Positions 5,600 to 17,502 of a stretch of 64,000 nucleotides of DNA are shown here, one piece after another. The translations under genes were made by a program, and so were the position numbers. Each line of letters opens with the position of its first letter. The stretch's first letter is position 1. Location: assembly GCA_025453495.1 (NCBI GenBank), contig JALOQM010000001.1, positions 15,664-79,663 on the forward strand, in the 5' to 3' direction. The notes beneath the pieces were generated by a model. That model made no database searches. It was given only the letters and a program-made list of their open reading frames with translations, and had not been told where the DNA came from. Origin of the DNA: Minisyncoccota bacterium (GTDB lineage: Bacteria > Patescibacteriota > Minisyncoccia > Phycocordibacterales > UBA9973).

Positions 5600-5848
5600 C
5601 TACGAGATCAGACTAGATTTTAGAATTCTCACAATACCAGTATCCGCGTCAACTTCAACCAAATCGCCATCTTTTAAAATTTTCGTTAAATTATCAATAC
5701 CGATAATGCAAGGCTTCTTAAACTCTCGTGCAACTATAGCCATGTGAGACAAAATGTTTCCATTTTCTATGAGAATAGCACCGGTGCGCAGGTAAGAGAT
5801 CTCGATAATATGAAGGGTATCAGTAATTTTGATCTCTTGGGCAAGCAT
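5600..5848 (-). CDS. Stand-alone PEP-utilising enzyme mobile (phosphohistidine swivel) domain; possible gene remnant
   Basis: SHMAIVAREFKKPCIIG and DGDLVEVDADTGIV are the canonical PEP-utilisers motifs. Only 82 aa with no flanking catalytic domains, and a stop codon lies upstream in frame. Confidence 0.5.
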   Translation of the reverse strand: MLAQEIKITDTLHIIEISYLRTGAILIENGNILSHMAIVAREFKKPCIIGIDNLTKILKDGDLVEVDADTGIVRILKSSLIS

Positions 5849-6077
5849 GCAGAGCAGGAAGGCAAACTTCTGGTCGAGGTGTGGCGGAAAACCGCGAGTA
5901 GCTGAACGCGGGGTTCAGTGTCTTCGTTGGGATTTGCGTCCATATCCTAAAGTTTCGAAGCTCTAGGGGTTAGGTCGACTTTATTCAGATGTTGAAGATA
6001 TTATACCTCAAAAGGAGGTACTTGGGTACTTTAGCTTAACTTTAAGACGTTGTGTAGTGAAGTTACCAACAACTTGT

Positions 6078-6785
6078 TTAGCAAAGACCAGCCCCAATAG
6101 TTTCAAGCTTTTCCTTAACTCTCTCCCATTTAGGGTACTTTTCATCAAGTAATCGCCAGAACTTTGTATTGTGATTTTTGTATTTCAAATGACAAAGCTC
6201 ATGAATTATTACGTAGTCGATACAATCTTTTGAAGTATGAATTAGTTTAGGATTAAGAAATATTTTGTCTTTGTTGAGAAAACTACCCCAACGTTTCTTC
6301 ATTTCTCGAGTAGCAAGAATAGGAGTATTTTTATATTCAAACTTATTTAACATTTCCTTGAATCTATCTTGAAAAACACTTTCTGTTTTTACTTCAAACC
6401 ATTCATCAACCAGCTTTTTATTGTGGCGACTGTTTGAAACCTCTTTTGTGGTGTAAATAGTTAGAAGTCCTCTTGTTAATGAAACAAGGTCCTCTTTGCC
6501 ACGTCTTACGACCAGCTTATATTGTCTACCAAGATATAAATATCCCTCGCCAGAAATATATTCTTTTTCGTAAATCTTTCGTTGGTACTTTTTGAAAAAT
6601 GAAAGCTGTTTTTCTAACCAGAACCACTTTTTCTGTAAGAAGTTTTCTATTCTTTCATTATCGGTTTGTAGTGGACACTTAAGAATAATACGTAAGTCTG
6701 GAGTGACAGTGAGAGACAGTGTTTTACGATCTTGTTTTATAAGTTGGTATTCATATACAAATGTTCCAAATATGAATTCTTTCAT
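6078..6785 (-). CDS. DUF45/YgjP-like zinc metallohydrolase (WLM/M48-like HExxH)
   Basis: HELCHL motif. This family is often encoded next to type I hsdR genes. Confidence 0.7.
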   Translation of the reverse strand: MKEFIFGTFVYEYQLIKQDRKTLSLTVTPDLRIILKCPLQTDNERIENFLQKKWFWLEKQLSFFKKYQRKIYEKEYISGEGYLYLGRQYKLVVRRGKEDLVSLTRGLLTIYTTKEVSNSRHNKKLVDEWFEVKTESVFQDRFKEMLNKFEYKNTPILATREMKKRWGSFLNKDKIFLNPKLIHTSKDCIDYVIIHELCHLKYKNHNTKFWRLLDEKYPKWERVKEKLETIGAGLC

Positions 6786-6789
6786 AAGA

Positions 6790-9700
6790 TTAAGTGAATA
6801 AATCGAAGTTATTTTCTGCTAACAGCATTACATTATCAATGACAGCTTTGATGTGGTCGTTGTCTATTTCAATACCTTTTTCTCCTTTAACTACATCATA
6901 AAGATAGTCATCAATACTATTTCGCATCTTACGCTTAACGTCCATGTTTTTATACCAATCAACAATAGCCTCATTCTTAATGATTGCGAAAATATCAAGA
7001 ATTATAGAAATATATAATTCTTCACTAAGCTTTAGACTCTCAAACTGAGATCGTAAGTTACGGTAAAAAATATCAGAACCTTTATTTGTCTCAATATTTT
7101 CTGGAAGACTTTCATCCTTCTTGTTCACAACATCGTCACGAATTAACTTCATTTGTTTCAATGCTTCAACATCCGCAAGTTTACCTTGTCGCATCTTTTC
7201 AAGAATTTCTGAAATCTTTTTAGAAAACTTTTCGTAAAACTCAGGGTCAGTATCAAGTTTTTCGGTGATAGTTTTTTGTGTTTGTGCGGCGATAGCCTCA
7301 GCCTTTGATTTATCAGATCCAAGATTTTCAACAGCTTCTTCAAAAAGCTTTCTATCTGTAATGTTTACTTGTTTTGTTAGTAATTCAACCCCGCGAGCAT
7401 CAACATATTTATCAAGAATGTTAATAAGTGACTGCTTGTATTCTAATAGATCGACACGGTCTGCATATTGCAAACTAGCCGCCTTACGAAGCTCAGCAAA
7501 CTTTTTCAACTCACGCTTGTATAAATCAAGGTGTTTAAATTCATGCACGAAGTCTTGCAAGACAAAACACTCACTCAAATTCTTAATAAAAGCATTGAGT
7601 GTTTTGTAGAATGTTTCTCGTTTAGGTTGATCAGCAAGAAACTGTAAGTACACCTCATCATCAGATGATCCTTTTATTTCTTTAAATAAATCATGAACCA
7701 ATGAATAGCTCTGCTCGAGTTCCTGAATCTTATCTGCCACATCGATGAGGGTACCCTTCACATCGTTCTCATCATAGTTACCGAATAGCTTCATCGCTGT
7801 CTTAATATTTTTTGCGTTCTCAGAATAGTCAACAATATACCCTGCTGTCTTCGGTTTCTCTTTTGTATTTTCATAGAGACGATTTACACGAGCAATAGCC
7901 TGGAGTAAATCATGATCATGTAAATCTTTCGCTAAGTACAAGACGGTATTTCTAGGCGCATCGAATCCCGTGAGCAACTTACTCACAACAATAATAATTT
8001 CAACTCCGTCATCGTTATACTTAAAACTATCAACAACATCTTTCTCAAACTTCTCAACACTACTGTAATTTTTCTTTAAGTCCTCGAGATACTTAACAAC
8101 CTCTTTTTTATGTGTATCTTCTTCATCACCATCATCGTGTTCATCAGAAATCACAAGGGCTGTATTTATTTTTCCTGAAGTCTCAAATGCTCTTTGAAAC
8201 AAAACAGCTGAAAACTTTGACGGAGCAACGATTTGCGCTTTCAATCCAGTTCCCTGAAAATTTTCAATGAAATGTTTTTCAATATCAATAGCTATTTCTG
8301 AAATTCGATTTGGGTTATTCTGTATAATCTTTGTTCCAGCGTGCTTTTGTAGTTCCTTCTTTTGTTTATCATTAAGCCCCTCTACGATTCTTTCCATGCG
8401 TCTGTCTACCTGTTCCTGATTTTGAACAAGTTCTACATATCTTCCCTCGTAAATTAATGGGAGGATAACCTTGTCAGCCAAAGCATCATCGATAGTGTAT
8501 CTATCAATTTCCCCTCCAAATTTATTCCAACTTTTATCATTCTTTAAAAGAGGAGTTCCTGTAAATCCAATATAGCAAGCATTCGGTATAACACGGTTCA
8601 TCTCAAGATTAGCTATTCCATACTGCGTTCTGTGGGCTTCATCAATTAAAACAAAAATATTTTTATCTTTGTCTATAACAGAACCTTTTTTCCCGGCAGT
8701 TTGAAATTTTTGGACCAAAGTAGTAATAACTGCGAGTTCCTTATTCTGGATAAGATCAAGTAGATGTTCGCCACTTGTAGCCTGAACAACGTCTTTCTTA
8801 AGGTTACAGTTCTTGAACGTATCCTTGATTTGTTTATCGAGATCTCGACGATCGGTGACAATAATCACTCGAGGGTTGAGAATATGAGGGTCTTCAATAA
8901 GAGCCTTCACAAACATCACCATAGTGAGCGATTTACCAGATCCTTGTGTGTGCCATACGAGTCCACCTTTTCGGCGAGTGATGCCTTGCTCAGTAGTTTC
9001 TTCTTCCTCTATACGCTTGAGCATCTTGTGAATAGCAAAATATTGCTGATAGCGTGAGAGCTTCTTTACTCCTGCATCGAAAAGAATGTAATTCTTGGTG
9101 AGGTCAAGTAACCGCTTTGGTTCAAATAAAGAAAATATACCTCGATCTTGCTCAGTAGGTAATCTGTCTGTTCTTTGCTTATGTCCCTCGGTGTAGCCGT
9201 TGAGATCTTCGAGAATCTGCTTGTATACATCGGCATCAATAGGCTTCTGTATTAGCTTGCCAATCTGTGTATTGAGGTCTTCTTCTTTTGCACCTTTTTC
9301 TTTCCAAACAGCATAGAACTTGTTAGGTGTGCCTGTTGTTCCGTATTGCAAATCTTTTCCATTGGTACCAACGAGAAGCTGGGTATAGGTATAGAGCTTT
9401 GGACAATACTCAGGACCTTGGTTTCGGTTCATCTGGTTGATGGCCTCTTTCACATCAACACCAGACTTTTTGTTCTCAATCACTGCAAAAGGAATGCCGT
9501 TCACAAAACACACAATATCAGGACGGATATTCTGTTTACCACTCGCTACAAATTCAGCAGATACATGGAATGCATTATTCTGTGTGTTCTCGAAGTCAAT
9601 AAACTTGAAGTTCTTTGATATCTTTTTGCCTCCATGGCTTACCTTTATAGTCTTGCCACCACTGGTAGGCATGATGATGTTGTAGATCTTTTGAGCGGTA

Positions 9701-9975
9701 TCAATAAGTCCTTCGTATTGGATATGCTCAAGCTCATCGATAGCGTCACGAACATCTTTTTCACTGAACTTGTAGGTAGTTCCATCAACTTCGTACCCGT
9801 TTATGTCCATGAGTTTCTCGGTAGCAATATCAGCAAGGATGAAGTTTGAAGTATCACCGGAACGCTGTCTGAGTGCTTCCTCGGCAGAAATATATGTATA
9901 GCCCATGCTCAAGAGAAGCTCTATGAATGGGAGCTGTGATTGTTTTGCTTCATCAAAATGTACTTTTTCTAACAT
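6790..9975 (-). CDS. hsdR: Type I restriction enzyme R subunit
   Basis: 1061 aa with SF2 helicase motifs (GSGKS Walker A, DEAHR box) and the type I R architecture. Confidence 0.9.
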   Translation of the reverse strand: MLEKVHFDEAKQSQLPFIELLLSMGYTYISAEEALRQRSGDTSNFILADIATEKLMDINGYEVDGTTYKFSEKDVRDAIDELEHIQYEGLIDTAQKIYNIIMPTSGGKTIKVSHGGKKISKNFKFIDFENTQNNAFHVSAEFVASGKQNIRPDIVCFVNGIPFAVIENKKSGVDVKEAINQMNRNQGPEYCPKLYTYTQLLVGTNGKDLQYGTTGTPNKFYAVWKEKGAKEEDLNTQIGKLIQKPIDADVYKQILEDLNGYTEGHKQRTDRLPTEQDRGIFSLFEPKRLLDLTKNYILFDAGVKKLSRYQQYFAIHKMLKRIEEEETTEQGITRRKGGLVWHTQGSGKSLTMVMFVKALIEDPHILNPRVIIVTDRRDLDKQIKDTFKNCNLKKDVVQATSGEHLLDLIQNKELAVITTLVQKFQTAGKKGSVIDKDKNIFVLIDEAHRTQYGIANLEMNRVIPNACYIGFTGTPLLKNDKSWNKFGGEIDRYTIDDALADKVILPLIYEGRYVELVQNQEQVDRRMERIVEGLNDKQKKELQKHAGTKIIQNNPNRISEIAIDIEKHFIENFQGTGLKAQIVAPSKFSAVLFQRAFETSGKINTALVISDEHDDGDEEDTHKKEVVKYLEDLKKNYSSVEKFEKDVVDSFKYNDDGVEIIIVVSKLLTGFDAPRNTVLYLAKDLHDHDLLQAIARVNRLYENTKEKPKTAGYIVDYSENAKNIKTAMKLFGNYDENDVKGTLIDVADKIQELEQSYSLVHDLFKEIKGSSDDEVYLQFLADQPKRETFYKTLNAFIKNLSECFVLQDFVHEFKHLDLYKRELKKFAELRKAASLQYADRVDLLEYKQSLINILDKYVDARGVELLTKQVNITDRKLFEEAVENLGSDKSKAEAIAAQTQKTITEKLDTDPEFYEKFSKKISEILEKMRQGKLADVEALKQMKLIRDDVVNKKDESLPENIETNKGSDIFYRNLRSQFESLKLSEELYISIILDIFAIIKNEAIVDWYKNMDVKRKMRNSIDDYLYDVVKGEKGIEIDNDHIKAVIDNVMLLAENNFDLFT

Positions 9976-9979
9976 ATAG

Positions 9980-10825
9980 TTATTTTAATTTCTTCTTACT
10001 TTTTTGCGCCGGCAGATAGTTCTCACCAGTGACGACCTTTCTCCCTGTTTTTTCTTCGAGTGCAAGTCTGGCATCTTTTGCAATCTTGCCACCTTTTTGC
10101 GCAGGAATTTTATTTTCTTCCAATCCTTTCGCTTCGGTATTCTCTGCAATCTGTCGTGTTGAAAGCTCCGCAAGTGCGGTAAAGATGAGCTCAGCCTCAG
10201 ACATATGATCACGAACATTTGCGGTCTTCCCCAAGCCTTTCAATTTTTTATGATCTTGCACACCAAGCCCACTCCACTCTTGGTGAATGATATTCGTCAG
10301 AATCGCATACTCCTTACCCTCTTCTACACCCGCAGATTTCCAATAGTCGGTGAGCTTGTTGCGTGTCTCTTGCCCCATCATGCGCTGCTGTATCCACTTG
10401 TCGCTTCGGCCATGCTTTTTCCAATACTCGCGCGAACGGTTGAGTGCTATCTCTGGGTTTACCATTTCGTCGATTCTCTCCTGTCCGACCTTTGCAAGCC
10501 ACTGCTTGAAAGGCTCGGCCTTAGGTGAAGAAATGGATTGGATAATACGGAACATACCTTGCAAATTGGACATATTTTCTACACGCTTCTTACCATCACG
10601 AGCAACTACGTCAAGGGGGGTACAAATTGTACCCCAGTTGACAGAAAGCTCAGGATCACGTGTACGCATCTTTTTGATATATTGTTTTACATCTTTCGAC
10701 TCAGAAAGCACCCGTACGACATCAGAAACAGCAAAATACCATTGCTCGTCATGCCACACGCGACGCACCTCTGTTGCCTCAAATATTGCGGGTACTATAT
10801 TTTTTTGTATTTGTGGTTTTTTCAT
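9980..10825 (-). CDS. Bro-N domain protein, DNA-damage-inducible protein D (DinD)-like
   Basis: N-terminal Bro-N-like block (TEVRRVWHDEQWYFAVSDVVRVL). The C-terminal HKKLKGLGKTANVRDHMSEAELIFTALAELST pattern resembles DinD. Confidence 0.55.
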   Translation of the reverse strand: MKKPQIQKNIVPAIFEATEVRRVWHDEQWYFAVSDVVRVLSESKDVKQYIKKMRTRDPELSVNWGTICTPLDVVARDGKKRVENMSNLQGMFRIIQSISSPKAEPFKQWLAKVGQERIDEMVNPEIALNRSREYWKKHGRSDKWIQQRMMGQETRNKLTDYWKSAGVEEGKEYAILTNIIHQEWSGLGVQDHKKLKGLGKTANVRDHMSEAELIFTALAELSTRQIAENTEAKGLEENKIPAQKGGKIAKDARLALEEKTGRKVVTGENYLPAQKSKKKLK

Positions 10826-10829
10826 ATAT

Positions 10830-11114
10830 TTATTTGATTGGCATTGCTGATAATGTTTCTCGCCCAGCTAAATAAGATTTGAGCCTATTTTTTATAAACA
10901 TCTTTCCGTGGTATGTTTTTAAATACTTCTCTCGATGAATTGCGTCATTTTCATCAAGACACGCTTCATAATATACAAGCTCGAGTGGTCTTCGTGGTGC
11001 GGTAGATTCCACTTTGCCTTTTTGGTGTTGCTCAAATCTTAATTTTAAATTTTTACTATAACCAGTATAAAATTTGTTGTCTTTTTTTGATTGTAATAAG
11101 TAAGTGTAGTACAT
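10830..11114 (-). CDS. GIY-YIG nuclease superfamily protein (UPF0213/YhbQ-like)
   Basis: MYYTYLLQSKKDNKFYTGYSKNLKLRFEQH is a classic GIY-YIG core; 94 aa. Confidence 0.7.
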   Translation of the reverse strand: MYYTYLLQSKKDNKFYTGYSKNLKLRFEQHQKGKVESTAPRRPLELVYYEACLDENDAIHREKYLKTYHGKMFIKNRLKSYLAGRETLSAMPIK

Positions 11115-11125
11115 AAAATTTAAAA

Positions 11126-12358
11126 TTATTTAGCGGGGTCTGGTGTACGAATTGTGCCAGTGATCAAATTATTGAGGAGATACTTCTTTTGATCCTTAAT
11201 GATTTGAAGTTTCTTCTCAAGTTCTTGGATTTCATCTTCGGCAGTATTGAGTATCTTTGCGATTGCTTCTTGTTCTTTTATATCTTTAGGTAGATATATT
11301 TTGCATTCACCAATATCTCCCAGATTAATCTTTATAGGGAAAGCAACGTGTAGTGTTTTGGCTCTCAGCTCATTTTGAAAATCCTTAGTTGTAAGAAAAA
11401 AAGATAACGCTTTTGAATCAAAGGACCTATTAACTTTAAGAAGCGCTAATGTGACGTAGAAAGATGCTTTAACATCCCAATCTATATACTTGATGGCACC
11501 AATACTTCCAATTCGCGTCATCAAAATATCACCTCTTTCTATTCGAACTTTCTTTATCTCAGATTCATAAACTTTCTCTGAAATATACTTTGTATTTTTA
11601 AAGTCATTAGAAGTTACATGTTCGACACTATAGAATGGAATCCCGTGCTCGACATATGTAGGAGTCTGGTGAGTGCCATCGTATATTTTACAAACGTCTT
11701 TTAATAAAAGCGTCTGCCATTTATCTCCAAATCCAGACAAGCGTTTTTTGCCAGAAAGTAAATTTTGTTTTAAGGCTAATCTTATATTTTTCTTGATCTG
11801 AATTTTCTTTGAAAGTTTTTCAATTGATTTATCCCAAGTTTCAAGAACTGAAACGATGCGATTTTGTTCTGGGAGAGGAGGAAGTTTTATTTTTATAGAT
11901 TTAAGAATTTGCAAATTCAAACCACCACGACCACCGTCACCGGCAGAGATAGATCTTAATTCTTGATATCGTCTTTCTAAATCTGACCTTAAAAAACTAT
12001 AGCTAATATCTTTCTTTGGTATAAAAAAAGCTATGGACTGATTTGTAGTAAGTGAAATTTTATTTACAGCAACCTTTCCTCTTGTAGAACCCTGACCAGC
12101 TAAAGCAATCAAAACACTGTTTGCTGGCACTATTTTCGCTGATGAATTTTTAAAACCTTCATCAGTTATAAAATTTTCTGTTTGATAAATATTTTTCTTA
12201 TTGATTTCGGCTGAATTAGCCCATGGAATATTTCCACCTTCCCAGTATTCCAAAACATCTGTCGAAGGTGTACCTCCAGCAGAAATATCACAAACAACAC
12301 CAATCTTTACTTGCTGCCATTCTGGATGAATATTTTTTTGTTGTTGATTAGTTTTCAT
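11126..12358 (-). CDS. hsdS: Type I restriction-modification specificity subunit (two target-recognition domains)
   Basis: 410 aa with two TRD-like halves and conserved LPPLPEQ-type spacer and C-terminal repeats. Confidence 0.85.
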   Translation of the reverse strand: MKTNQQQKNIHPEWQQVKIGVVCDISAGGTPSTDVLEYWEGGNIPWANSAEINKKNIYQTENFITDEGFKNSSAKIVPANSVLIALAGQGSTRGKVAVNKISLTTNQSIAFFIPKKDISYSFLRSDLERRYQELRSISAGDGGRGGLNLQILKSIKIKLPPLPEQNRIVSVLETWDKSIEKLSKKIQIKKNIRLALKQNLLSGKKRLSGFGDKWQTLLLKDVCKIYDGTHQTPTYVEHGIPFYSVEHVTSNDFKNTKYISEKVYESEIKKVRIERGDILMTRIGSIGAIKYIDWDVKASFYVTLALLKVNRSFDSKALSFFLTTKDFQNELRAKTLHVAFPIKINLGDIGECKIYLPKDIKEQEAIAKILNTAEDEIQELEKKLQIIKDQKKYLLNNLITGTIRTPDPAK

Positions 12359-12415
12359 AATTTCACTGGTTTAATTGAGATATCTATAATTTAGATATCT
12401 CTTACTGCCCTCAAA

Positions 12416-12640
12416 TTATTCTTTACTCTCGTATCCTTTTTTACAATTCAGCATAATGTAAGAATTTAATCCTTGGCCAGCTTTGGCAAGTCTTTTCATT
12501 TCATTTACGTGAATTTCACCCGCACTTTGATTGGTGTATTTATAGATACTAGAGTCTTTAAATTGAACTCGTATAAAATCTACACCAATTTCAAAACCTT
12601 TTACATTAGAATCTCCCCCTAAATTTGCGTATGTTTCCAT
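12416..12640 (-). CDS. KTSC-domain small protein
   Basis: FIRVQFKDSSIYKYTNQSAGEIHVNEMKRLAKAGQGLNSYIMLN fits the KTSC pattern (Y.Y...Y..L..A.S.G.YFN). Confidence 0.45.
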   Translation of the reverse strand: METYANLGGDSNVKGFEIGVDFIRVQFKDSSIYKYTNQSAGEIHVNEMKRLAKAGQGLNSYIMLNCKKGYESKE

Positions 12641-12699
12641 ATGTCATATTTGGCTAACTAATAATTAGTTTAACGACATTTCGGTCATTATAATGAATA

Positions 12700-13950
12700 T
12701 TATTCTTCTGAAGCTCGTTTAAATTTTTCTTGCATAGTCGGATTTCCTTTTGTTAATTTTTTAATAGTTAAATCATCAGCTTTATTATTTGCCAAACGAA
12801 GATTATTTTCCGAAGCCAAAAGATTGTCTTTAATCTTTTGAAGATGATCAATTGATTTATCAATCTCTTCTACAGCTGCTTTGAATTTTTGACTTGCTAA
12901 ATTGTAATTACGAGCAAATCCTTCCTTAAAAGCATTGAGGTTTTCTTCAAAGTGAGTAATATCTACATTTTGACTTTTCACAACAGCGAGTTCTGCCTTA
13001 TATTGCATCGAATTTAAAGCAGCATTTCGCAAAAGTGTGATAATTGGAATAAAGAATTGAGGTCGAACTACGTACATTTTAGGGTAACGATGGAATACAT
13101 CAACAATTCCAGTGTTATATAGCTCATTATCACTTTCAAGCAACGAAACTAGAACTGCGTATTCACACTTCTTTTCATTTCTATCCTTATCTAGTTCTTT
13201 CAAAAAGTCTTCATTCTTTTTCTTTGTAGCGGTAGTATCCGATTCATTTTTCATTTCAAACATTATTGAAATAATTTCATTACCTGCCTCATCATATTCT
13301 CGGTAAATATAGTCTCCTTTACTTCCAGTGGCTGAGTCATTATCTTTTTCAAAAGTAGCATTCTTAAAACCTGTTGCACGGAGTTTATTAAACTCAATTT
13401 CACAATGTTGTTCAAGAGTTTCGCCAAGCATTTTTGTTGAGAGCTTTACCTTCATGTCTTTGTAGCGCTCAATAATTTCATCTTTAGCTTTAAGCTCTGC
13501 CTCAAATTTACTATTTAAAGATAGTTCGATTTGTTGCTTTTCAGCATCCTTCATCTTTATCTCAGAAGCAAGATGGTCACGCTCTTTTTCAATTTTTGTC
13601 ACAGCCTCAGTGATTGCAAGTTTTTTTTCAGTTTCTGTCGATGAAAGCTTCGCTCGCAGTTCTGTTATTTCAAGTTCACTTTGAGACTTAGATAGATTTA
13701 CTTCACGCTCCTTTTCAGCCTTAAGTCTTGCGATTTCTAAATCTTTTTGAGCAAGGTCGTCTTTAATTTTATTTTTTACTTGCTCTTCAGCCAACTTTAC
13801 GGCACTCTCTTTTTCAGCCTTCAAAAGACTTTCTCTTTTGAGAAGCTCTTCTTCAAATTGGTGATCTCGTACTTGTTTAAGAATATCAGCATAACCTGCT
13901 TCATCAATTTTAAATGCTTTTTTACAATGTGGGCAAATTATTTCATTCAT
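12700..13950 (-). CDS. DUF2130-family protein (zinc ribbon, coiled coil, C-terminal domain)
   Basis: The N-terminus [28 protein letters not shown] is the hallmark start of DUF2130, followed by a long coiled coil. This family recurs inside type I R-M operons. Confidence 0.65.
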
Positions 13951-13957
13951 ACGTTTA

Positions 13958-15469
13958 TTATTTAATCCCTAATTCTTTTAAATATCCAACCATTTGTTTT
14001 TCAAGCTTCGCAAGCTCAGGCTCAAGAGCTTCAAGTTCTTTGAGGTTTGCTTTTATGTCCACAGGAGCTTCTTCCTCAAACGTATCGACGTATCGAGTGA
14101 TGTTGAGGTTAAAATCATTTTCCTCAATTTCCTTAAGAGAAACCTTGCGGGCAAATTTCTCTACATCCTTATGTTTCTTGTAGGTAGAGTAAATCTTCTC
14201 GATGTTCTCATCGGTAAGAATGTTCTGAGCTTTATTTGGTTTATATTCCTTTGAAGCCTCGATAAAGAAAACATCTTTTTTAGATTCGTTCTCTCCGCCT
14301 TTCTCACGTGATCGGTCAATAATAAGGATGGCTACAGGAATTCCCGTTGTCTGGAACAATCCCGCAGGTAGTCCGATAACTGCATCTATAAGATTTTCCT
14401 TGAGGAGCTGTTCGCGAATCTTTCCTTCAGCTCCACCACGGAAGAGAACGCCGTGTGGCACTACGACTGCCATATGGCCAGTCTTCGCCTTGAGTGTCTC
14501 AACCATGTGCGTGATAAAGGCAAAATCACCTTTATCCTTTGGTGGAACACCACGCCAGAATCGCTTGTATTTGTCGGCTTCTGCGTGCTCGGCACCCCAT
14601 TTTTTAAGAGAAAACGGAGGGTTTGCCACGATCGTGTCAAACTTCATCAAATGGTCGTTCTCTACAAGGAGAGGATTGTTCAATGTGTCACCCCATTCAA
14701 GTCGGGCTGAATCCTTTCCGTGGAGGAACATGTTCATGCGAGCGAGCTGATAGGTTGATCCTGTTGATTCCTGACCATAGAGTGCGTAGTTTTTTGAACC
14801 TTGTTTCTCAACTTCTTCACCTGCAAGGAGGAGGAGGCCACCTGAACCCATACAAGGATCACAAATACGTGCCCCTGCTTGTGGCTCTGCGAGCTTTGCA
14901 ACGAGCTGGGCAACGTTTCTCACAGTGAAAAATTCGCCCGCTTTCTTGCCCGCGTCGGCACCAAAGCGTTCGATCATATACATATATGAGTTACCGATGA
15001 TGTCGTCCTTCACGTCGCCGAGGTCAATCTGAGCAAAGTCCTGCACGAGATGGCGGAGCATCTTGTTTCGTTCAGCGAGCTTGCCGAGTGTTGATTCTGA
15101 GTTGAAGTCTACAGAAAATACTCCATCGAGTTTCTCTTTGTTTGTGTCTTCGATTCGATGAAGTGCTTTGTTGATTTCTTCACCAAGATTATCTTGCTCG
15201 ATTACCGAATAGATATAATCGAATGAAGACTTTGGGGGAAGATAGAAGCGATCGAGCTTCATTTTTTCTTCGATACGCTTTGTGTCGCTACCAAAACGCT
15301 CTTTGTATTCAGCATACTTCTTCTTTGAGAGGTCAGAGAGGTATTTAAAGAAAAGCATTGCAAGAACGTAGTCTTTGTAGATACCTGCATCTACCTGAGT
15401 ACGAGAAGAATCCGCTGCGTCCCAGAGGATTTTGTTTAGGTCTTCTTGTGTATATTTTTGAGTATTCAT
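13958..15469 (-). CDS. hsdM: Type I restriction-modification N6-adenine DNA methyltransferase subunit
   Basis: HsdM N-terminal domain plus the catalytic [11 protein letters not shown] (NPPF) motif and an AdoMet-binding region. Confidence 0.9.
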
Positions 15470-15470
15470 A

Positions 15471-16082
15471 TTAGTTATTAATTAGGTTAGTAAACGATGC
15501 GTTGATAATGTTTTTTTGTAATTCTTGTTTTCTCTTTAGTATCCGTTCTTGGTCTGTTATGTTTTCGTGGAGTGCGATGATGGATTTTTGAATATGTATC
15601 GGGGGTATGGGGATTTTAAAATCAATCAAATTTTTTACTAAAATACTTTGTATATAGGACCCGCCCGTAACTATTTGAAGTAATTCTTTTTGCCCGATTT
15701 CTGAGTTGAGGTATAGCGATACATATTTAGGGAGGACTGTGACATCTTGAATTCGTATTACATGAACCGAAGATGATGGCATCACCTTTGATTCATCAGA
15801 TACAAAAACTGCGGATCGAAATGAGCCTGGCCCTGACCCTCTAGAGACAAGCAAAATGTCATTATGTTGTAGGAAGTAGGGGTTTCTCAAAGATTTATCT
15901 GTAATTGTTGTAAAACCAGTTATATATTGAATATCTTGGTTTGTTTGTACATTTTTAGCTTGAAGCACAAAAATATCCCCATTTGGGTCATTTTCTATAG
16001 ACCCACGGAATGTGTACCCTGAAACAATGTCTGCTAATTGGCTCAATTTCTTGTGCATGTAAAAAGCATACTGCATTTTCAA
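15471..16082 (-). CDS. Half-size HsdS-like specificity protein (single TRD plus conserved C-terminal repeat)
   Basis: 203 aa. It ends with IPIPPIHIQKSIIALHENITDQERIL, typical of the S-subunit conserved region, and abuts hsdM. Confidence 0.65.
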   Translation of the reverse strand: MKMQYAFYMHKKLSQLADIVSGYTFRGSIENDPNGDIFVLQAKNVQTNQDIQYITGFTTITDKSLRNPYFLQHNDILLVSRGSGPGSFRSAVFVSDESKVMPSSSVHVIRIQDVTVLPKYVSLYLNSEIGQKELLQIVTGGSYIQSILVKNLIDFKIPIPPIHIQKSIIALHENITDQERILKRKQELQKNIINASFTNLINN

Positions 16083-16146
16083 AATAAAAGCAAGTTTTTA
16101 CCCTATTTAGTTACCAACAGCTAGGAAATGGGACGCTCTGGACTCC

Positions 16147-17502
16147 TTGGAGGGGTTGCGTCATCAATGTAGTTGTATGAAAACAACAGCACCAATTGGC
16201 TACGAAATGACACAAGCAGCCCAAGCACCAATAAAAGTGAGGTATTGCCTCTATGCCCGTAAATCAACGGAATCTGAGGAAAGACAGGTTCTTTCAATAG
16301 ATTCGCAGATTAAGGAAATGTTACAGCTCGCCGAGAGAGAAAACTTGGAGATTGTAACAATGAAGCGAGAAAGCCATTCAGCAAAAGAAACTGGACAACG
16401 ACCAGTCTTTAACGAGATTATTGAGGAGATACGGCAAAAGAAGTACAACGGCATACTGACATGGGCACCTGACCGTATTAGTAGAAATGCCGGAGACTTG
16501 GGAAAGATAGTAGATCTGATGGATGCAGGATTGTTACAAGAAATACGTATATATGGTCAAAAATTTTCAAACAATCCAAACGAAAAATTCTTGCTAATGA
16601 TTCTTGGATCGCAAGCGAAATTAGAGAATGACAATAGAGGTGTGAATGTAAAACGAGGATTGCGTACGAGAGTTGAAATGGGTCTCTGGCCTGGGGTAGC
16701 ACCACTTGGATACTTAAATCAAAAACATATGGATAAAAAGTGTCAGGTAATAGTCGATCCACAACGTGCTCCTGTCATCAAAAAGATATTTGAAAAAGTA
16801 GTATACGAACACTATTCAGGAAGAAAGTTATATAACTGGTTACGACACGAACTGAATTTCTATACTCGTGGCAACAAACCTCTGACCTTAAGCGGAATAT
16901 ACCGAATACTTGAAAATCAGTTCTATCATGGAGTGTTTGAGCATCCGAGAGGAAGCGGTAACTGGTATCAAGGAAAACATGAGCCACTCATCACACAGGA
17001 ACTATTTGAAAAAGCTCAAGCACAACTAAAGCGAGATAATATACAACGAGAGAATAAAGAATTCGCATTCACGAAACTATTCACCTGCGGATACTGTGGT
17101 AGTGGAATATCAGCAGAGGAAAAATGGAAACAACTCAAAGATGGTACGCATGCGAAATACATCTACTACTTCTGCTCAAGAGCGAGAGATAGAAACTGCA
17201 AGAATATGTACATACGAGAGGAAGATTTAATACTTGAGCTATTGAAGATCCTCGACAAAGTAAACATCAATGAACTAGGTATGCGAAAGAAACTAGAAGA
17301 TGAGATCGCAAGGTTCAATATCTTCCAAAGATCAGTGCTTGGAGCAACAGACAAGATTAAAAACAACAAAGATACTGAAATACGAAACTTCGCTAAGTAT
17401 ATTTTGAAAGAAGGAGCAGTTGGAGAGAAACGAGAGCTGCTAGCCAACCTAAGATCGAGAATAATATACAAAGACAAACAACTTATACTGATTGCTGAAT
17501 AA
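16147..17502 (+). CDS. Large serine recombinase (resolvase catalytic domain, recombinase domain, zinc ribbon)
   Basis: YARKSTESEERQVLSIDSQ catalytic block, a recombinase domain and a CGYCGS zinc ribbon. The likely true start is an internal Met at 16177 or 16207. Divergent from the R-M operon. Confidence 0.85.
   Translation: MEGLRHQCSCMKTTAPIGYEMTQAAQAPIKVRYCLYARKSTESEERQVLSIDSQIKEMLQLAERENLEIVTMKRESHSAKETGQRPVFNEIIEEIRQKKYNGILTWAPDRISRNAGDLGKIVDLMDAGLLQEIRIYGQKFSNNPNEKFLLMILGSQAKLENDNRGVNVKRGLRTRVEMGLWPGVAPLGYLNQKHMDKKCQVIVDPQRAPVIKKIFEKVVYEHYSGRKLYNWLRHELNFYTRGNKPLTLSGIYRILENQFYHGVFEHPRGSGNWYQGKHEPLITQELFEKAQAQLKRDNIQRENKEFAFTKLFTCGYCGSGISAEEKWKQLKDGTHAKYIYYFCSRARDRNCKNMYIREEDLILELLKILDKVNINELGMRKKLEDEIARFNIFQRSVLGATDKIKNNKDTEIRNFAKYILKEGAVGEKRELLANLRSRIIYKDKQLILIAE

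What the first reader, a model, noticed from the sequence alone, without database searches (positions are those of the whole stretch)
9980..11114. GIY-YIG mini-nuclease and DinD-like Bro-N protein between hsdS and hsdR
A 94-aa stand-alone GIY-YIG domain and a 281-aa Bro-N/DinD-like protein are inserted where hsdS normally abuts hsdR. Bro-N domains are phage-derived DNA-binding modules, and DinD is SOS-induced. The pairing with a GIY-YIG nuclease suggests a DNA-damage- or phage-responsive toxin-regulator or homing-type cassette inside the R-M operon.
Basis: partly seen in the sequence, partly recalled or inferred. Interest (0 to 1): 0.55.

Follow-up and report, generated by a model that had tools for sequence, protein, structure and literature searches.

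The report
Selfish mini-nuclease inserted beside restriction accessory gene
The two small genes are real but are not a pair: the DinD-like Bro-N gene is a standing accessory of this restriction operon, while the GIY-YIG gene is a roughly 280-bp selfish element that landed in the end of hsdS and whose DNA folds into a conserved three-way junction.

Summary
Both ORFs exist at the stated coordinates and both domain calls hold: Pfam Bro-N at 4e-12 and GIY-YIG at 5.5e-16. The window is a Candidatus Pacebacteria (Patescibacteria) contig.

The two genes are not a cassette. Six of seven close relatives carry the Bro-N gene in type I R-M operons. Five of them share the backbone hsdS–BroN–hsdR–YgjP, and none has a GIY-YIG gene.

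The Bro-N protein matches PADLOC candidate defence family PDC-S13 full-length (E 2.7e-111). It shares DinD's architecture but fails the DinD equivalog cut-off. Its model resembles the DNA-break sensor DdrC. No LexA box was found.

The GIY-YIG gene is a private 281-bp insertion (window 10860–11140) inside the 3' end of hsdS:
- Its 5' end supplies a new hsdS stop codon.
- Its own stop is lost, so the ORF reads through the displaced hsdS tail, giving 94 aa against a family norm of 84.

At least 516 related copies lie in unrelated flanks. All are bounded by inverted ends. Leader, an internal coding stretch and the 3' end form a covarying three-way junction. ORF-less hairpin derivatives also exist. 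The nuclease model is closest to Slx1/UPF0213 branched-DNA nucleases. The closest known analogue is the Ssn repeat-associated nuclease family, but its repeat motif is absent here.

The parts
9980..10825 (-). Bro-N / DinD-like gene (281 aa). It has an N-terminal Bro-N domain with a variable segment (residues ~40-90) and a nearly invariant helical C-terminal domain. It is a member of PADLOC candidate family PDC-S13.
   Evidence: Pfam Bro-N E 4.1e-12. PADLOC PDLC04920 E 2.7e-111 over residues 12-279. phrog_15286 E 3.6e-82. Alignment A1 and per-segment conservation 0.53 against 0.82-0.86. AF2 model pLDDT 83.9. Foldseek top hit DdrC, E 1e-6.
10830..11114 (-). GIY-YIG ORF as it now reads (94 aa). 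The native 84-aa nuclease is 10863-11114. A CGA codon sits where the family has TGA/TAA (10860-10862). Read-through then continues into 10830-10859.
   Evidence: Pfam GIY-YIG E 5.5e-16. The family ends ...RLKSYLTG at residue 84. Junction alignment. AF2 model pLDDT 80. Foldseek hits UPF0213 and Slx1.
10860..11140 (-). The inserted mobile unit (281 bp, boundaries +/-2 nt): 5' inverted end, leader, GIY-YIG ORF, and a 3' inverted end that lies inside the last codons.
   Evidence: Absent at the same position of the otherwise collinear operons L091 and L092. The same unit occurs with unrelated flanks in 70+ metagenome loci.
10830..10859 (-). Displaced original 3' tail of hsdS (ETLSAMPIK*), now translated as the C-terminal extension of the GIY-YIG ORF.
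   Evidence: Aligns base for base with the hsdS ends of L091 and L092 (GAAACATTATCA...TAA, then 4 nt, then the Bro-N ATG).
11129..11140 (-). Helix A, 5' arm (5' terminal inverted repeat). The adjacent bases 11126-11128 supply the new hsdS stop codon.
   Evidence: Covariation.
10861..10872 (-). Helix A, 3' arm (3' terminal inverted repeat, inside codons 82-85).
   Evidence: 9 of 12 pairs form in the window copy.
11117..11128 (-). Helix B, leader arm, directly upstream of the ATG.
   Evidence: 100% complementary to 11040-11051 in the window. 8 of 12 pairs show compensatory changes across 72 copies.
11040..11051 (-). Helix B, internal arm, covering the codons of N-L-K-L in the conserved NLKLRFEQH motif. 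The synonymous codon choice covaries with the leader.
11030..11039 (-). Helix C, internal arm (codons R-F-E-Q).
   Evidence: 10 of 10 pairs in the window. 94.4% paired across copies.
10875..10884 (-). Helix C, 3' arm (codons R-L-K-S).
11126..12358 (-). hsdS (410 aa). Its last 4 codons and stop (DPAK*) come from the inserted unit and replace the ancestral ETLS...K* tail.
   Evidence: Pfam Methylase_S E 4e-41. Junction alignment.
6790..9975 (-). hsdR (1061 aa), 4 nt downstream of the Bro-N gene.
   Evidence: NCBIfam hsdR E 9.7e-144. Pfam.
6078..6785 (-). YgjP-like metallopeptidase gene, the last gene of the constant backbone hsdS-BroN-hsdR-YgjP.
   Evidence: Pfam YgjP-like E 2.6e-52. The same order is seen in L091, L092, the P0029 place, L178 and L179.
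12416..15469 (-). hsdM (13958-15469) plus the variable cargo slot between hsdM and hsdS. Here the slot holds DUF2130 (12700-13950) and a 74-aa ORF (12416-12640).
   Evidence: Pfam and NCBIfam. In relatives the slot holds other genes.
15471..16082 (-). Half-size hsdS (203 aa), the first gene of the operon, conserved in relatives.
   Evidence: Pfam Methylase_S E 8.3e-11. Relatives.

Best explanation
Two unrelated things sit side by side.

(1) The Bro-N gene.
- Shown: the 281-aa Bro-N/DinD-like gene is a constant, co-inherited accessory of this Patescibacteria type I R-M operon lineage (half-hsdS, hsdM, a variable cargo slot, hsdS, BroN, hsdR, YgjP). It belongs to the widespread single-gene family that PADLOC lists as phage-defence candidate PDC-S13.
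- Inferred: it is a dimer-type DNA-binding protein of the DinD/DdrC kind. It would act on the DNA ends or nicks that restriction produces, or on the recombinase that would repair them. That would either lock in the kill of restricted phage DNA or spare the host chromosome.

(2) The GIY-YIG gene.
- Shown: it is the single ORF of a roughly 280-300-bp selfish mobile unit that inserted into the last codons of hsdS, 37 nt upstream of the Bro-N start, in operon orientation. The unit brings a stop codon for the interrupted gene. It has no SD-like motif of its own here, and its ATG lies 11 nt after the hsdS stop, so it probably rides on operon transcription and coupled translation.
- Shown: the unit is bounded by 13-17-bp inverted ends. 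Its 5' end plus leader, an internal coding stretch and its 3' end pair into a gap-free three-way junction that is conserved by compensatory change.
- Inferred: its Slx1/UPF0213-like, structure-selective nuclease recognises and cuts this branched fold, or its hairpin-only derivatives, in single-stranded or extruded DNA. That would drive spread in the manner proposed for repeat-associated Ssn nucleases and IS200/IS605.

The adjacency of the two genes is incidental.
For: Independence of the two genes:
- L091 (Bro-N 88% identical) has the same nine-gene operon without GIY-YIG. The P0016, P0029, P0034 and P0050 contexts have hsdS-BroN-hsdR-YgjP without it. The P0018 context has hsdR-BroN-hsdM in another type I family.
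- The only GIY-YIG gene in 80 Bro-N loci is a different, 174-aa type. A Bro-N relative lies near only 2 of 80 GIY-YIG loci.

Insertion event:
- Alignment A4 shows 281 extra bases after ...CGTACACCA.
- The displaced hsdS tail is now read as residues 86-94 of the GIY-YIG ORF.
- The family norm of 84 aa ends in SYLTG.

Mobility:
- At least 516 metagenome loci carry relatives.
- Flanks are unrelated while the ends are conserved.
- Several loci hold 2 copies within 10 kb.
- Nested or fused copies exist: P0121, P0123 and P0208.
- 31 of 62 copies sit within 40 nt upstream of a same-strand ORF start.
- ORF-less mini and solo-hairpin copies occur in L139, L142 and others. About 14 solo hairpins were found in 375 kb of GIY-YIG loci against none in 1.15 Mb of control loci.

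Structure:
- 34 pairs in 3 helices are 93.9% paired, and 18 pairs carry double changes.
- The covariation score is 0.223 against 0.112+/-0.004 in shuffles (0 of 500 reach it), and at most 0.078 when partners are slid.
- RNAalifold finds the same junction unaided.
- The window copy folds with z = -5.1 as DNA.
- G-T and A-C mismatches are equally frequent in two of the three helices, so there is no RNA-strand bias.

Nuclease:
- Residues Y5, Y16, G18, R26, H30 and E62 are invariant or nearly so.
- Foldseek gives UPF0213 BH0048, then Slx1 (including DNA-bound forms) at probability 1.0 and TM 0.55-0.60, ahead of I-TevI.

Bro-N protein:
- PADLOC PDC-S13, defined by embedding in BREX, DISARM or type I R-M (bioRxiv 10.1101/2024.01.29.577857).
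- At least 595 species in many phyla carry it.
- About a quarter of immediate neighbours there are R-M or defence genes.
- Published cases of dinD-like genes inside type I R-M: PMC9881135 and PMC4996451.
- DdrC fold match. DdrC binds nicks and double-strand breaks (PMC11347143).
Against: - No transposition or cleavage has been observed. Only one filled/empty site pair was compared, and a target duplication could not be resolved (at most 2 bp, 'GA').
- GIY-YIG enzymes cut but do not ligate, so a complete mobility pathway is not explained.
- The three-way junction could instead act in the mRNA for translation control or stability, or in both. Equal G-T and A-C counts argue against an RNA-only role but do not exclude it, and in helix C the counts are unequal (3 against 14).
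- Much of the helix B covariation separates two lineages, so there are fewer independent events than cells counted. About ten distinct leader/codon variants were seen.
- GIY-YIG and dinD-like genes do co-occur in at least two other type I R-M operons: L037 and CP081899.1 in PMC9881135. A loose functional link through a shared hot spot is therefore not excluded.
- For the Bro-N protein, no member of PDC-S13 has a published test in the library searched.
- The DdrC match has 13-16% identity and TM of only 0.36-0.44.
- Three quarters of distant family members are not next to R-M genes, and one close relative sits in an ABC-transporter operon.
Confidence: 0.72

Rival explanations
1. The GIY-YIG nuclease and the Bro-N protein form a two-gene toxin-regulator (or sensor-effector) defence cassette embedded in the R-M operon.
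For: The genes are 4 nt apart and co-oriented. Bro-N/KilA-N domains are fused to GIY-YIG-like T5orf172 domains in some viruses (established knowledge, not tested here). GIY-YIG plus dinD-like genes also occur together in L037, in L136 and in CP081899.1 (PMC9881135).
Against: The pairing is absent from all seven close relatives examined and from 79 of 80 Bro-N loci and 78 of 80 GIY-YIG loci. The GIY-YIG unit has its own inverted ends and lands in unrelated contexts. The junction alignment shows a discrete recent insertion. PADLOC has no model that matches the GIY-YIG protein.
Confidence: 0.05
2. The GIY-YIG gene is a classical free-standing homing endonuclease. It cuts a specific allele lacking it (here the hsdS/Bro-N junction) and is copied in by recombinational repair. 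The inverted ends are incidental.
For: GIY-YIG is a classic homing-endonuclease fold. I-TevI is a fold match, though weaker, and there is a weak TIGR01453 hit. The insertion is between genes of a horizontally mobile operon.
Against: More than 70 copies have unrelated flanks, so there is no single cognate site. The protein is one 84-aa domain with no DNA-binding module. Conserved, covarying ends and ORF-less hairpin derivatives are not features of homing genes.
Confidence: 0.1
3. The three-way junction is an mRNA structure that controls translation or stability of a domesticated small nuclease (a DNA-repair or housekeeping UPF0213-type protein). The unit is not currently mobile, and the inverted ends merely mark a transcript-level fold.
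For: Helix B sequesters the leader immediately upstream of the start codon. UPF0213/YhbQ proteins are ordinary chromosomal genes in many bacteria (PDB 1zg2, 1ywl). The protein is under strong purifying selection.
Against: There is no excess of G-U over A-C mismatches (48 against 45 in helix A, 12 against 11 in B, 3 against 14 in C). The discrete insertion relative to L091 and L092 brings the whole fold with it. Multiple copies occur per 10 kb, along with nested copies and ORF-less mini-copies. Rfam has no such family.
Confidence: 0.12
4. The Bro-N protein is a transcription regulator or antirepressor left by a prophage or island. It controls expression of the R-M operon rather than acting on DNA ends.
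For: PHROG antirepressor families match the N-terminal domain (E 1e-5 and weaker). BFVD fold matches are Bro-N, KilA-N or 'repressor domain' phage proteins. JGI names include 'prophage antirepressor-like protein'. A serine recombinase gene is adjacent to the operon.
Against: Only 4 uncultured fragments in 50,697 phage records carry a relative. The C-terminal domain, not the Bro-N domain, is the nearly invariant part. The gene sits in fixed position between hsdS and hsdR with 4-nt gaps across relatives, which suggests a stoichiometric partner rather than a regulator. The whole-protein fold match is to DdrC.
Confidence: 0.2

Closest known systems
Ssn family of site-specific single-stranded DNA nucleases (SsnA of Neisseria meningitidis, CDD cd10448; Chenal et al. 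2025, PMC11893778)
   Same: It is a single-domain GIY-YIG protein of the same size (SsnA is 94 aa; this family is 84 aa). The gene is bracketed by inverted-repeat DNA that co-evolves with it. Gene-less hairpin copies of the repeat are scattered nearby. The authors themselves note an IS-like 'repeat-gene-repeat' layout.
   Different: - Ssn genes are flanked by a complete hairpin (SRM, 20-50 nt) on each side. Here each side carries one arm of a single long-range stem.
- Two further helices involve the coding sequence, giving a three-way junction.
- The published SRM pattern has no match anywhere in the window, and the repeat sequence is unrelated.
- Sequence membership (cd10448, or E<1e-10 to SsnA) could not be tested because no SsnA sequence was available.
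- The best structural neighbours are UPF0213 and Slx1.
Slx1 / UPF0213 (YhbQ, BH0048) clade of GIY-YIG nucleases
   Same: These are the best sequence hits (1zg2 E 4e-4) and fold hits (probability 1.0, TM 0.55-0.60, 25-30% identity). The catalytic Tyr/Tyr/Arg/His/Glu set is conserved. Slx1 is a structure-selective nuclease for flaps, three-way junctions and Holliday junctions (established knowledge), which fits a branched DNA substrate.
   Different: It has no RING/PHD domain and no Slx4 partner. It is not a single-copy housekeeping gene but a multi-copy unit with inverted ends.
PADLOC phage-defence candidate PDC-S13 (Payne et al. 2024, bioRxiv 10.1101/2024.01.29.577857)
   Same: The Bro-N protein matches the family HMM PDLC04920 over its full length (E 2.7e-111). 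It is embedded in a type I R-M operon, which is the criterion by which the family was proposed.
   Different: The family is defined by context only. No function or mechanism is published in the library searched. In this Patescibacteria lineage the gene is a fixed backbone component rather than variable cargo.
E. coli DinD (SOS-induced RecA-filament inhibitor)
   Same: It has the same two-part architecture: Bro-N at residues 10-105 of DinD plus a helical C-terminal domain. Local homology in the C-terminal domain is 32% over 62 aa (E 1e-5), and NF008573 aligns residues 141-261.
   Different: It scores 20.3 bits against the equivalog cut-off of 242. There is no LexA box. It lies in an R-M operon, whereas E. 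coli dinD lies between yicC and yicG. RecA inhibition was not tested.
DdrC of Deinococcus radiodurans (DNA nick and double-strand-break sensor; PDB 7udi, 8u0g, 7qvb)
   Same: It is the best solved-structure match to the whole Bro-N protein model (E 1e-6, probability 1.0, 216-256 aligned columns). Both have an N-terminal winged-helix-like domain plus a helical C-terminal domain. Both DdrC and DinD are DNA-damage induced.
IS200/IS605 and REP/RAYT systems
   Same: These are small units whose ends fold into DNA secondary structures recognised in single-stranded DNA. They have gene-less repeat derivatives that accumulate near gene ends.
   Different: Their enzyme is a HUH/Y1 transposase that can rejoin DNA. 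Here it is a GIY-YIG hydrolytic nuclease, and no strand-transfer chemistry is evident.

Membership tests
Bro-N domain proteins (Pfam PF02498) | Score above the Pfam gathering threshold | tested here: met
   47 bits against 25.6, residues 19-112.
DinD (NCBIfam NF008573 equivalog) | Whole-protein score above the curated cut-off | tested here: not met
   20.3 bits against 242, and only residues 141-261 align. BLASTP to E. coli DinD gives 62 aa at 32%.
DinD (NCBIfam NF008573 equivalog) | SOS regulation through a LexA box upstream | tested here: not met
   Ten LexA-box consensus types give no match in 5800-16500, apart from one palindrome downstream of the operon at 6017-6030. Caveat: the LexA motif of Patescibacteria is unknown.
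DinD (NCBIfam NF008573 equivalog) | Bro-N plus C-terminal helical domain architecture | tested here: met
   E. coli DinD has Bro-N at residues 10-105. The window protein has Bro-N at 19-112 plus helices at 104-260.
PADLOC PDC-S13 | Match to the family HMM | tested here: met
   PDLC04920 E 2.7e-111, 369.5 bits, residues 12-279 on profile positions 7-275 of 286.
PADLOC PDC-S13 | Embedded within a BREX, DISARM or type I R-M system | tested here: met
   It lies between hsdS and hsdR on the same strand. The same holds in 6 of 7 close relatives.
PADLOC PDC-S13 | Anti-phage activity | not testable with these tools
   No paper in the library names PDC-S13, and the source paper's supplements give no match.
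GIY-YIG nuclease superfamily (Pfam PF01541) | Domain score and catalytic residues (GIY Tyr, YIG Tyr, Arg, His, metal-binding Glu) | tested here: met
   59.1 bits against 22.6. Y5, Y16, G18, R26, H30 and E62 are invariant or nearly invariant in 21 relatives including the window protein. The mapping to I-TevI and UvrC catalytic positions is from established knowledge.
Ssn nucleases (cd10448) | Single-domain GIY-YIG protein of about 100 aa | tested here: met
   84 aa native, 94 aa here, with one Pfam domain. SsnA is 94 aa.
Ssn nucleases (cd10448) | CDD cd10448 assignment, or BLAST E<1e-10 to N. meningitidis SsnA | not testable with these tools
   There is no CDD search and no SsnA sequence was available. 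The paper's supplements are not held.
Ssn nucleases (cd10448) | SRM hairpin motif (HGTCWY...RNCYNB) on both sides of the gene | tested here: not met
   The regex of the published pattern gives 0 matches in the 64-kb window. A different repeat, CCCTGTTAAAT...ATTTAACAGGG, is associated instead.
Ssn nucleases (cd10448) | Site-specific cleavage of single-stranded DNA only | not testable with these tools
   This needs a biochemical assay.
Free-standing homing endonuclease genes | Occupancy of one cognate site, with flanks homologous between filled and empty alleles across hosts | tested here: not met
   The flanks of 72 aligned copies are unrelated outside columns 7-304.
Insertion sequences / transposons | Terminal inverted repeats | tested here: met
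   The ends are 13-17 bp and 90-93% paired across copies. The window arms are 10863-10875 and 11126-11138.
Insertion sequences / transposons | Target-site duplication | tested here: inconclusive
   One filled/empty comparison allows at most a 2-bp 'GA'.
Insertion sequences / transposons | Transposase of a known class | tested here: not met
   The only ORF is a GIY-YIG nuclease.
Two-gene toxin-antitoxin or defence cassette | Conserved adjacency of the two genes across genomes | tested here: not met
   1 of 80 and 2 of 80 loci, and 0 of 7 close relatives.
DdrC-like DNA-lesion binding proteins | Shared fold over both domains | tested here: inconclusive

The most novel reading that the evidence does not exclude
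The GIY-YIG unit would be an autonomous mobile element of only about 290 bp, among the smallest gene-carrying mobile DNAs. Its own coding sequence doubles as two arms of a three-way DNA junction. An 84-aa Slx1-like, structure-selective nuclease would recognise that self-encoded branched fold in single-stranded or extruded DNA to excise or copy the unit. The unit also spawns ORF-less hairpin repeats. This would be a GIY-YIG-based counterpart of IS200/IS605 and REP-RAYT, and a mechanistic sister of the Ssn/NTS system. It is abundant in Patescibacteria and inserts by preference just upstream of start codons in operons.
Probability: 0.35. Interest if true: 0.85.

Novelty: new variant of a known kind. 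Interest (0 to 1): 0.62.

Why it matters
- **For the R-M operon:** comparison across relatives separates a constant backbone (hsdS-BroN-hsdR-YgjP) from a swap-in cargo slot between hsdM and hsdS. That slot holds DUF2130, SMODS-SLATT, a ThsB-type TIR gene and others. This marks the DinD/DdrC-like protein as a probable working partner of type I restriction rather than a passenger. It gives the untested PDC-S13 family a concrete hypothesis: handling of the DNA ends that restriction makes.
- **For the GIY-YIG gene:** a gene routinely annotated 'GIY-YIG nuclease family protein' or even 'excinuclease ABC subunit C' in Patescibacteria turns out to be a structured selfish unit. It edits the ends of host genes, supplying stop codons and fusing to displaced tails.
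- **If the nuclease cuts its own three-way junction:** this would extend the recently described Ssn principle of small nucleases paired with co-evolving DNA structures. It would offer a set of very small, structure-programmed DNA nucleases.
- **For annotation:** the 94-aa ORF is a chimera, and the hsdS C-terminus is not native.

Tried and rejected
- **LexA/SOS control:** ten box types were searched. Nothing relevant was found.
- **Internal promoters or terminators:** consensus hits were not above shuffles, and there is no minus-strand terminator between hsdM and hsdR.
- **Known RNA families across 9800-11400:** none at E<=1.
- **Ssn SRM motif:** absent.
- **GIY-YIG paralogs or solo hairpins elsewhere in the window:** none.
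- **Compositional anomaly of the Bro-N gene as a sign of recent transfer:** rejected. Its GC (0.448) is near the window mean (0.414), and across 68 loci gene GC tracks flank GC (r = 0.90).
- **Phage origin of the Bro-N family:** only 4 unannotated fragments among 50,697 phage records carry a relative.
- **Plasmid relatives of the GIY-YIG protein:** 2 weak hits, uninformative.
- **First neighbour screen:** tblastn and iterated HMMs built from the window's Hsd proteins proved too insensitive for other R-M families. It was replaced by Pfam scans of all neighbours.
- **Own-versus-cross arm matching as a covariation test:** too blunt (14.3 against 14.1). It was replaced by pair counting.
- **A first helix B/C register that was off by one column** was corrected.
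- **Literature for PDC-S13, UPF0213, COG2827 or cd10448:** only the Ssn paper is relevant.
Full report
**1. Observation**

The minus strand carries a tightly packed operon:

| Gene | Coordinates |
|---|---|
| half-size hsdS | 15471-16082 |
| hsdM | 13958-15469 |
| DUF2130 | 12700-13950 |
| 74-aa ORF | 12416-12640 |
| hsdS | 11126-12358 |
| 94-aa GIY-YIG ORF | 10830-11114 |
| 281-aa Bro-N ORF | 9980-10825 |
| hsdR | 6790-9975 |
| YgjP-like peptidase gene | 6078-6785 |

The gaps around the two ORFs of the finding are 11, 4 and 4 nt. Pfam supports both domain calls well above threshold. Exactly these proteins are on record from a Candidatus Pacebacteria (Patescibacteria) MAG contig of 251 kb.

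**2. The Bro-N protein**

Domain and family assignments:
- It has Bro-N at residues 19-112.
- The DinD equivalog model aligns only residues 141-261, at 20 bits against a cut-off of 242.
- E. coli DinD, read from NC_000913.3, also has an N-terminal Bro-N domain. It shares a 62-aa stretch at 32% identity in the C-terminal domain.
- 'DinD-like' is therefore right for architecture and distant homology, but the protein is not a DinD orthologue.

The decisive hit is PADLOC. Model PDLC04920 of candidate system PDC-S13 matches the full length at E 2.7e-111. PDC systems were proposed by Payne et al. from genes embedded in BREX, DISARM and type I R-M loci. They were added to PADLOC as untested candidates (bioRxiv 10.1101/2024.01.29.577857). 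I found no paper in the library that names or tests PDC-S13.

Earlier papers had noted dinD-like genes in type I R-M loci:
- a dinD-hsdS fusion in Bibersteinia (PMC4996451);
- a Table entry for CP081899.1 with a dinD/RhuM CDS and a GIY-YIG CDS between the core genes (PMC9881135).

**3. Distribution and context of the Bro-N family**

The family is large. 8000 of 8000 scored candidates passed, and at least 595 species-level genomes in many phyla carry a relative at 51-65% identity.

In an alignment of 24 members the C-terminal ~180 residues are nearly invariant. Residues ~40-90 of the Bro-N domain fall into at least three alternative versions. These versions do not follow C-terminal similarity, and mean column conservation is 0.53 against 0.82-0.86.

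For the 80 genome loci I called ORFs and scanned the immediate same-strand neighbours with Pfam.
- About a quarter are R-M or defence genes. These include HsdS, N6_N4 and Eco57I/MmeI methylases, type ISP, ResIII/EcoEI_R_C, RhuM, DUF1016 and Cas.
- Several are tandem Bro-N paralogs.
- The rest are ordinary genes.

Among close Patescibacteria relatives the picture is sharper:

| Relative | Context |
|---|---|
| P0004, P0016, P0029, P0034, P0050 | half-hsdS, hsdM, variable genes, hsdS, BroN, hsdR, YgjP |
| P0018 | hsdR(EcoEI type)-BroN-hsdM in another type I family |
| P0027 | inside an ABC-transporter operon |

The genes between hsdM and hsdS differ from operon to operon:
- DUF2130 plus a 74-aa ORF;
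- a 442-aa ORF;
- a 272-aa ORF;
- DUF4145 + SMODS + SLATT_4;
- ThsB-type TIR plus two ORFs.

By contrast, hsdS-BroN-hsdR-YgjP is constant. In this lineage the Bro-N gene is therefore backbone, not cargo.

**4. What the Bro-N protein may do**

An AlphaFold model built on the alignment is confident (pLDDT 83.9). The only solved structures matching it at E <= 0.001 are the three DdrC entries from Deinococcus (E 1e-6, probability 1.0, 216-256 aligned columns). TM is only 0.36-0.44 and identity 13-16%.

DdrC is a damage-induced dimer that binds nicks and double-strand breaks (PMC11347143). Viral fold matches are Bro-N, KilA-N or antirepressor-like proteins. True phage records almost never carry this family.

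Three things point the same way. DinD is known to inhibit RecA filaments (established knowledge). The protein resembles DdrC. The gene holds a fixed place next to hsdR. From these I infer a protein that handles DNA ends or recombination intermediates made by restriction. This step is inference, not shown.

There is no LexA box, no internal promoter or terminator signal, and no compositional anomaly.

**5. The GIY-YIG gene is an insertion**

I aligned the window junction with the collinear operons L091 and L092. The relatives read ...TIRTP-ETLS...K*, then 4 nt, then the Bro-N ATG. The window has 281 extra bases (10860-11140) directly after ...CGTACACCA.
- The first bases of the insert finish hsdS as DPAK*.
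- The GIY-YIG ORF follows 11 nt later.
- Where relatives of the nuclease end (...RLKSYLTG, then TGA or TAA), the window has CGA.
- Translation therefore continues through the displaced hsdS tail (ETLSAMPIK*).

This explains 94 aa against the family's 84.

**6. The insert is one copy of a mobile unit**

The nuclease family is very abundant in Patescibacteria, at 75-84% identity among hundreds of clusters. At least 516 metagenome loci carry a relative. Anchoring 77 copies on start and end showed the following:
- Flanks are unrelated.
- A conserved 5' motif, (T)TCACCCTGTTAAATAATTTTAAATT, lies 9-27 nt upstream of the ATG.
- The 3' end, TTATTTAACAGGGT(G/A)A, is its reverse complement.

The window arms are 11126-11138 and 10863-10875.

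Further signs of mobility:
- two copies within 10 kb in four loci;
- nested or tandem copies, and a copy fused into a 23S_rRNA_IVP gene (P0121, P0123 and P0208);
- a homolog in a type IV secretion-like context;
- half of the evaluable copies within 40 nt upstream of a same-strand ORF start, often 1-9 nt;
- ORF-less derivatives.

In L139 a full unit is followed by a ~145-bp mini-unit and a ~40-bp solo hairpin, immediately before a gene start. A scan found about 14 solo hairpins and about 6 intermediates in 375 kb of GIY-YIG loci. It found none in 1.15 Mb of Bro-N loci.

**7. A conserved three-way junction**

In the window copy the leader (11117-11128) is perfectly complementary to codons N-L-K-L (11040-11051). 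The next codons (11030-11039) are perfectly complementary to codons near the 3' end (10875-10884). As single-stranded DNA the unit folds with z = -5.1.

In an alignment of 72 copies the leader exists in two main versions, TAATTTTAAATT and TAGCTTGAGGT. The synonymous codons of L-K-L switch in step (TTA AAA TTA against CTC AAG CTA). About ten further matched variants occur, in L105, L110, L115, L126, L127, L132, L133, L147/L150, L168 and L173.

Pair counting on the three helices gives:
- 93.9% of cells paired;
- 18 of 34 pairs with changes on both sides;
- 182 such cells;
- a covariation score of 0.223 against 0.112+/-0.004 in shuffles (0 of 500 reach it), and at most 0.078 when partners are slid.

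RNAalifold predicts the same gap-free junction without guidance. G-T and A-C mismatches are equally common in helices A (48 against 45) and B (12 against 11). Helix C shows 3 against 14. So there is no sign that only the sense RNA is selected. This favours a DNA-level role, or both.

Much of the helix B signal separates two lineages, so there are fewer independent events than cells counted.

**8. The nuclease**

Y5, Y16, G18, R26, H30 and E62 are invariant or nearly so. The only PDB sequence hits are UPF0213 proteins. The model (pLDDT 80) matches UPF0213 BH0048, then Slx1, including Slx1 bound to flap and branched DNA (probability 1.0, TM 0.55-0.60). I-TevI ranks lower.

A structure-selective nuclease clade together with a self-encoded branched DNA suggests that the enzyme recognises its own unit's fold. 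This is inference.

**9. Comparison with what is known**

The closest described system is the Ssn family (PMC11893778). Ssn proteins are 94-aa single-domain GIY-YIG enzymes. Their genes are flanked by co-evolving hairpin repeats. They cut single-stranded DNA next to the repeat, and the authors remark on an IS-like layout.

Here the layout differs in three ways:
- There is one stem closing the whole gene, plus two helices that use coding sequence.
- The published SRM pattern is absent.
- Sequence membership could not be tested.

I therefore file the unit as a new variant of the repeat-associated small GIY-YIG nuclease kind. I file the Bro-N gene as a new member of a catalogued but untested family.

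**10.

The domains are right. 'DinD-like' is right in a loose sense. 'Homing-type' is nearly right for one gene. The pairing as a toxin-regulator cassette, SOS control, and insertion of both genes between hsdS and hsdR are not supported.

I estimate that GIY-YIG and Bro-N genes lie close together about as often as chance gives. They do recur together in R-M operons, which attract embedded genes in general (L037; CP081899.1).

Noticed in passing
window 12416-13950; compare L092:4491-5955, L178:1622-3774, L179:1819-3423: The gap between hsdM and hsdS is a variable cargo slot in this operon lineage. The window and L091 hold DUF2130 plus a 74-aa ORF. Relatives hold a 442-aa ORF, a 272-aa ORF, DUF4145 + SMODS + SLATT_4, or a ThsB-type TIR gene plus two ORFs. 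Meanwhile hsdS-BroN-hsdR-YgjP stays constant.
   Followed up: partly
window 16147-17502 (+): A large serine recombinase gene (Resolvase, Recombinase and Zn_ribbon_recom domains) lies divergently next to the first gene of the R-M operon. A Resolvase/Recombinase gene also precedes the related operon that carries P0029. The operon may travel as an integrative island.
   Followed up: no
window 15471-16082 (-): A half-size hsdS (203 aa, one target-recognition domain) precedes hsdM. This is conserved in relatives (195-197 aa). It is only 27% identical to the full hsdS, and no DNA repeats suggest inversion switching.
   Followed up: partly
L139:2524-2711; L142:45-1000: There are ORF-less derivatives of the GIY-YIG unit. 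One is a ~145-bp mini-copy that keeps arm A and a short-looped helix B. Others are ~40-bp solo hairpins (CCCTGTTAAAT-loop-ATTTAACAGGG). They are stacked in tandem directly upstream of a gene start, and some are nested.
   Followed up: partly
A1 columns ~55-100 (window protein residues ~40-90): The middle of the Bro-N domain occurs in at least three alternative versions that are shuffled relative to the almost invariant C-terminal domain. For example, P0034 has a different version but a C-terminal domain nearly identical to the window's. This suggests modular exchange of a recognition surface.
   Followed up: partly
L006, L019, L027, L030, L059; L096:2101-4740: Tandem Bro-N/DinD-like paralogs (38-46% identical) occur in several genomes. 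In L096 a run of Bro-N, KilA-N and AntA genes sits next to a GIY-YIG unit, a Dam-type methylase and DndB.
   Followed up: partly
L177:4255-7084: One close relative of the Bro-N gene (P0027, 77% identical) sits between the ABC ATPase gene and the MacB/FtsX permease gene of a transporter operon. So the gene itself also lands inside unrelated operons.
   Followed up: no
window 12416-12640 (-): The 74-aa ORF has no Pfam or NCBIfam match. It does match internal segments of much longer phage proteins: phrog_17428 at E 6e-22, and a 'virion structural protein' PHROG at E 9.5e-13. It is conserved with DUF2130 in L091.
   Followed up: no
P0121, P0123, P0208: Some GIY-YIG proteins are chimeras. Two are tandem or nested double copies. 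One is fused behind a truncated 23S_rRNA_IVP (four-helix-bundle) protein. This is consistent with insertion of the unit into other small multi-copy genes.
   Followed up: partly
window 6017-6030: A perfect match to the cyanobacterial-type LexA-box pattern (GGTACTTGGGTACT) lies about 50 nt downstream of the last operon gene. It is one of only three matches in the window, and its significance is unknown.
   Followed up: no
L037:241-6566: A proteobacterial type I R-M operon stacks a 174-aa GIY-YIG gene of a different type, hsdS, a Fic gene, a Bro-N/DinD-like gene and an EcoEI-type hsdR. It is another example of several embedded genes in one operon.
   Followed up: partly
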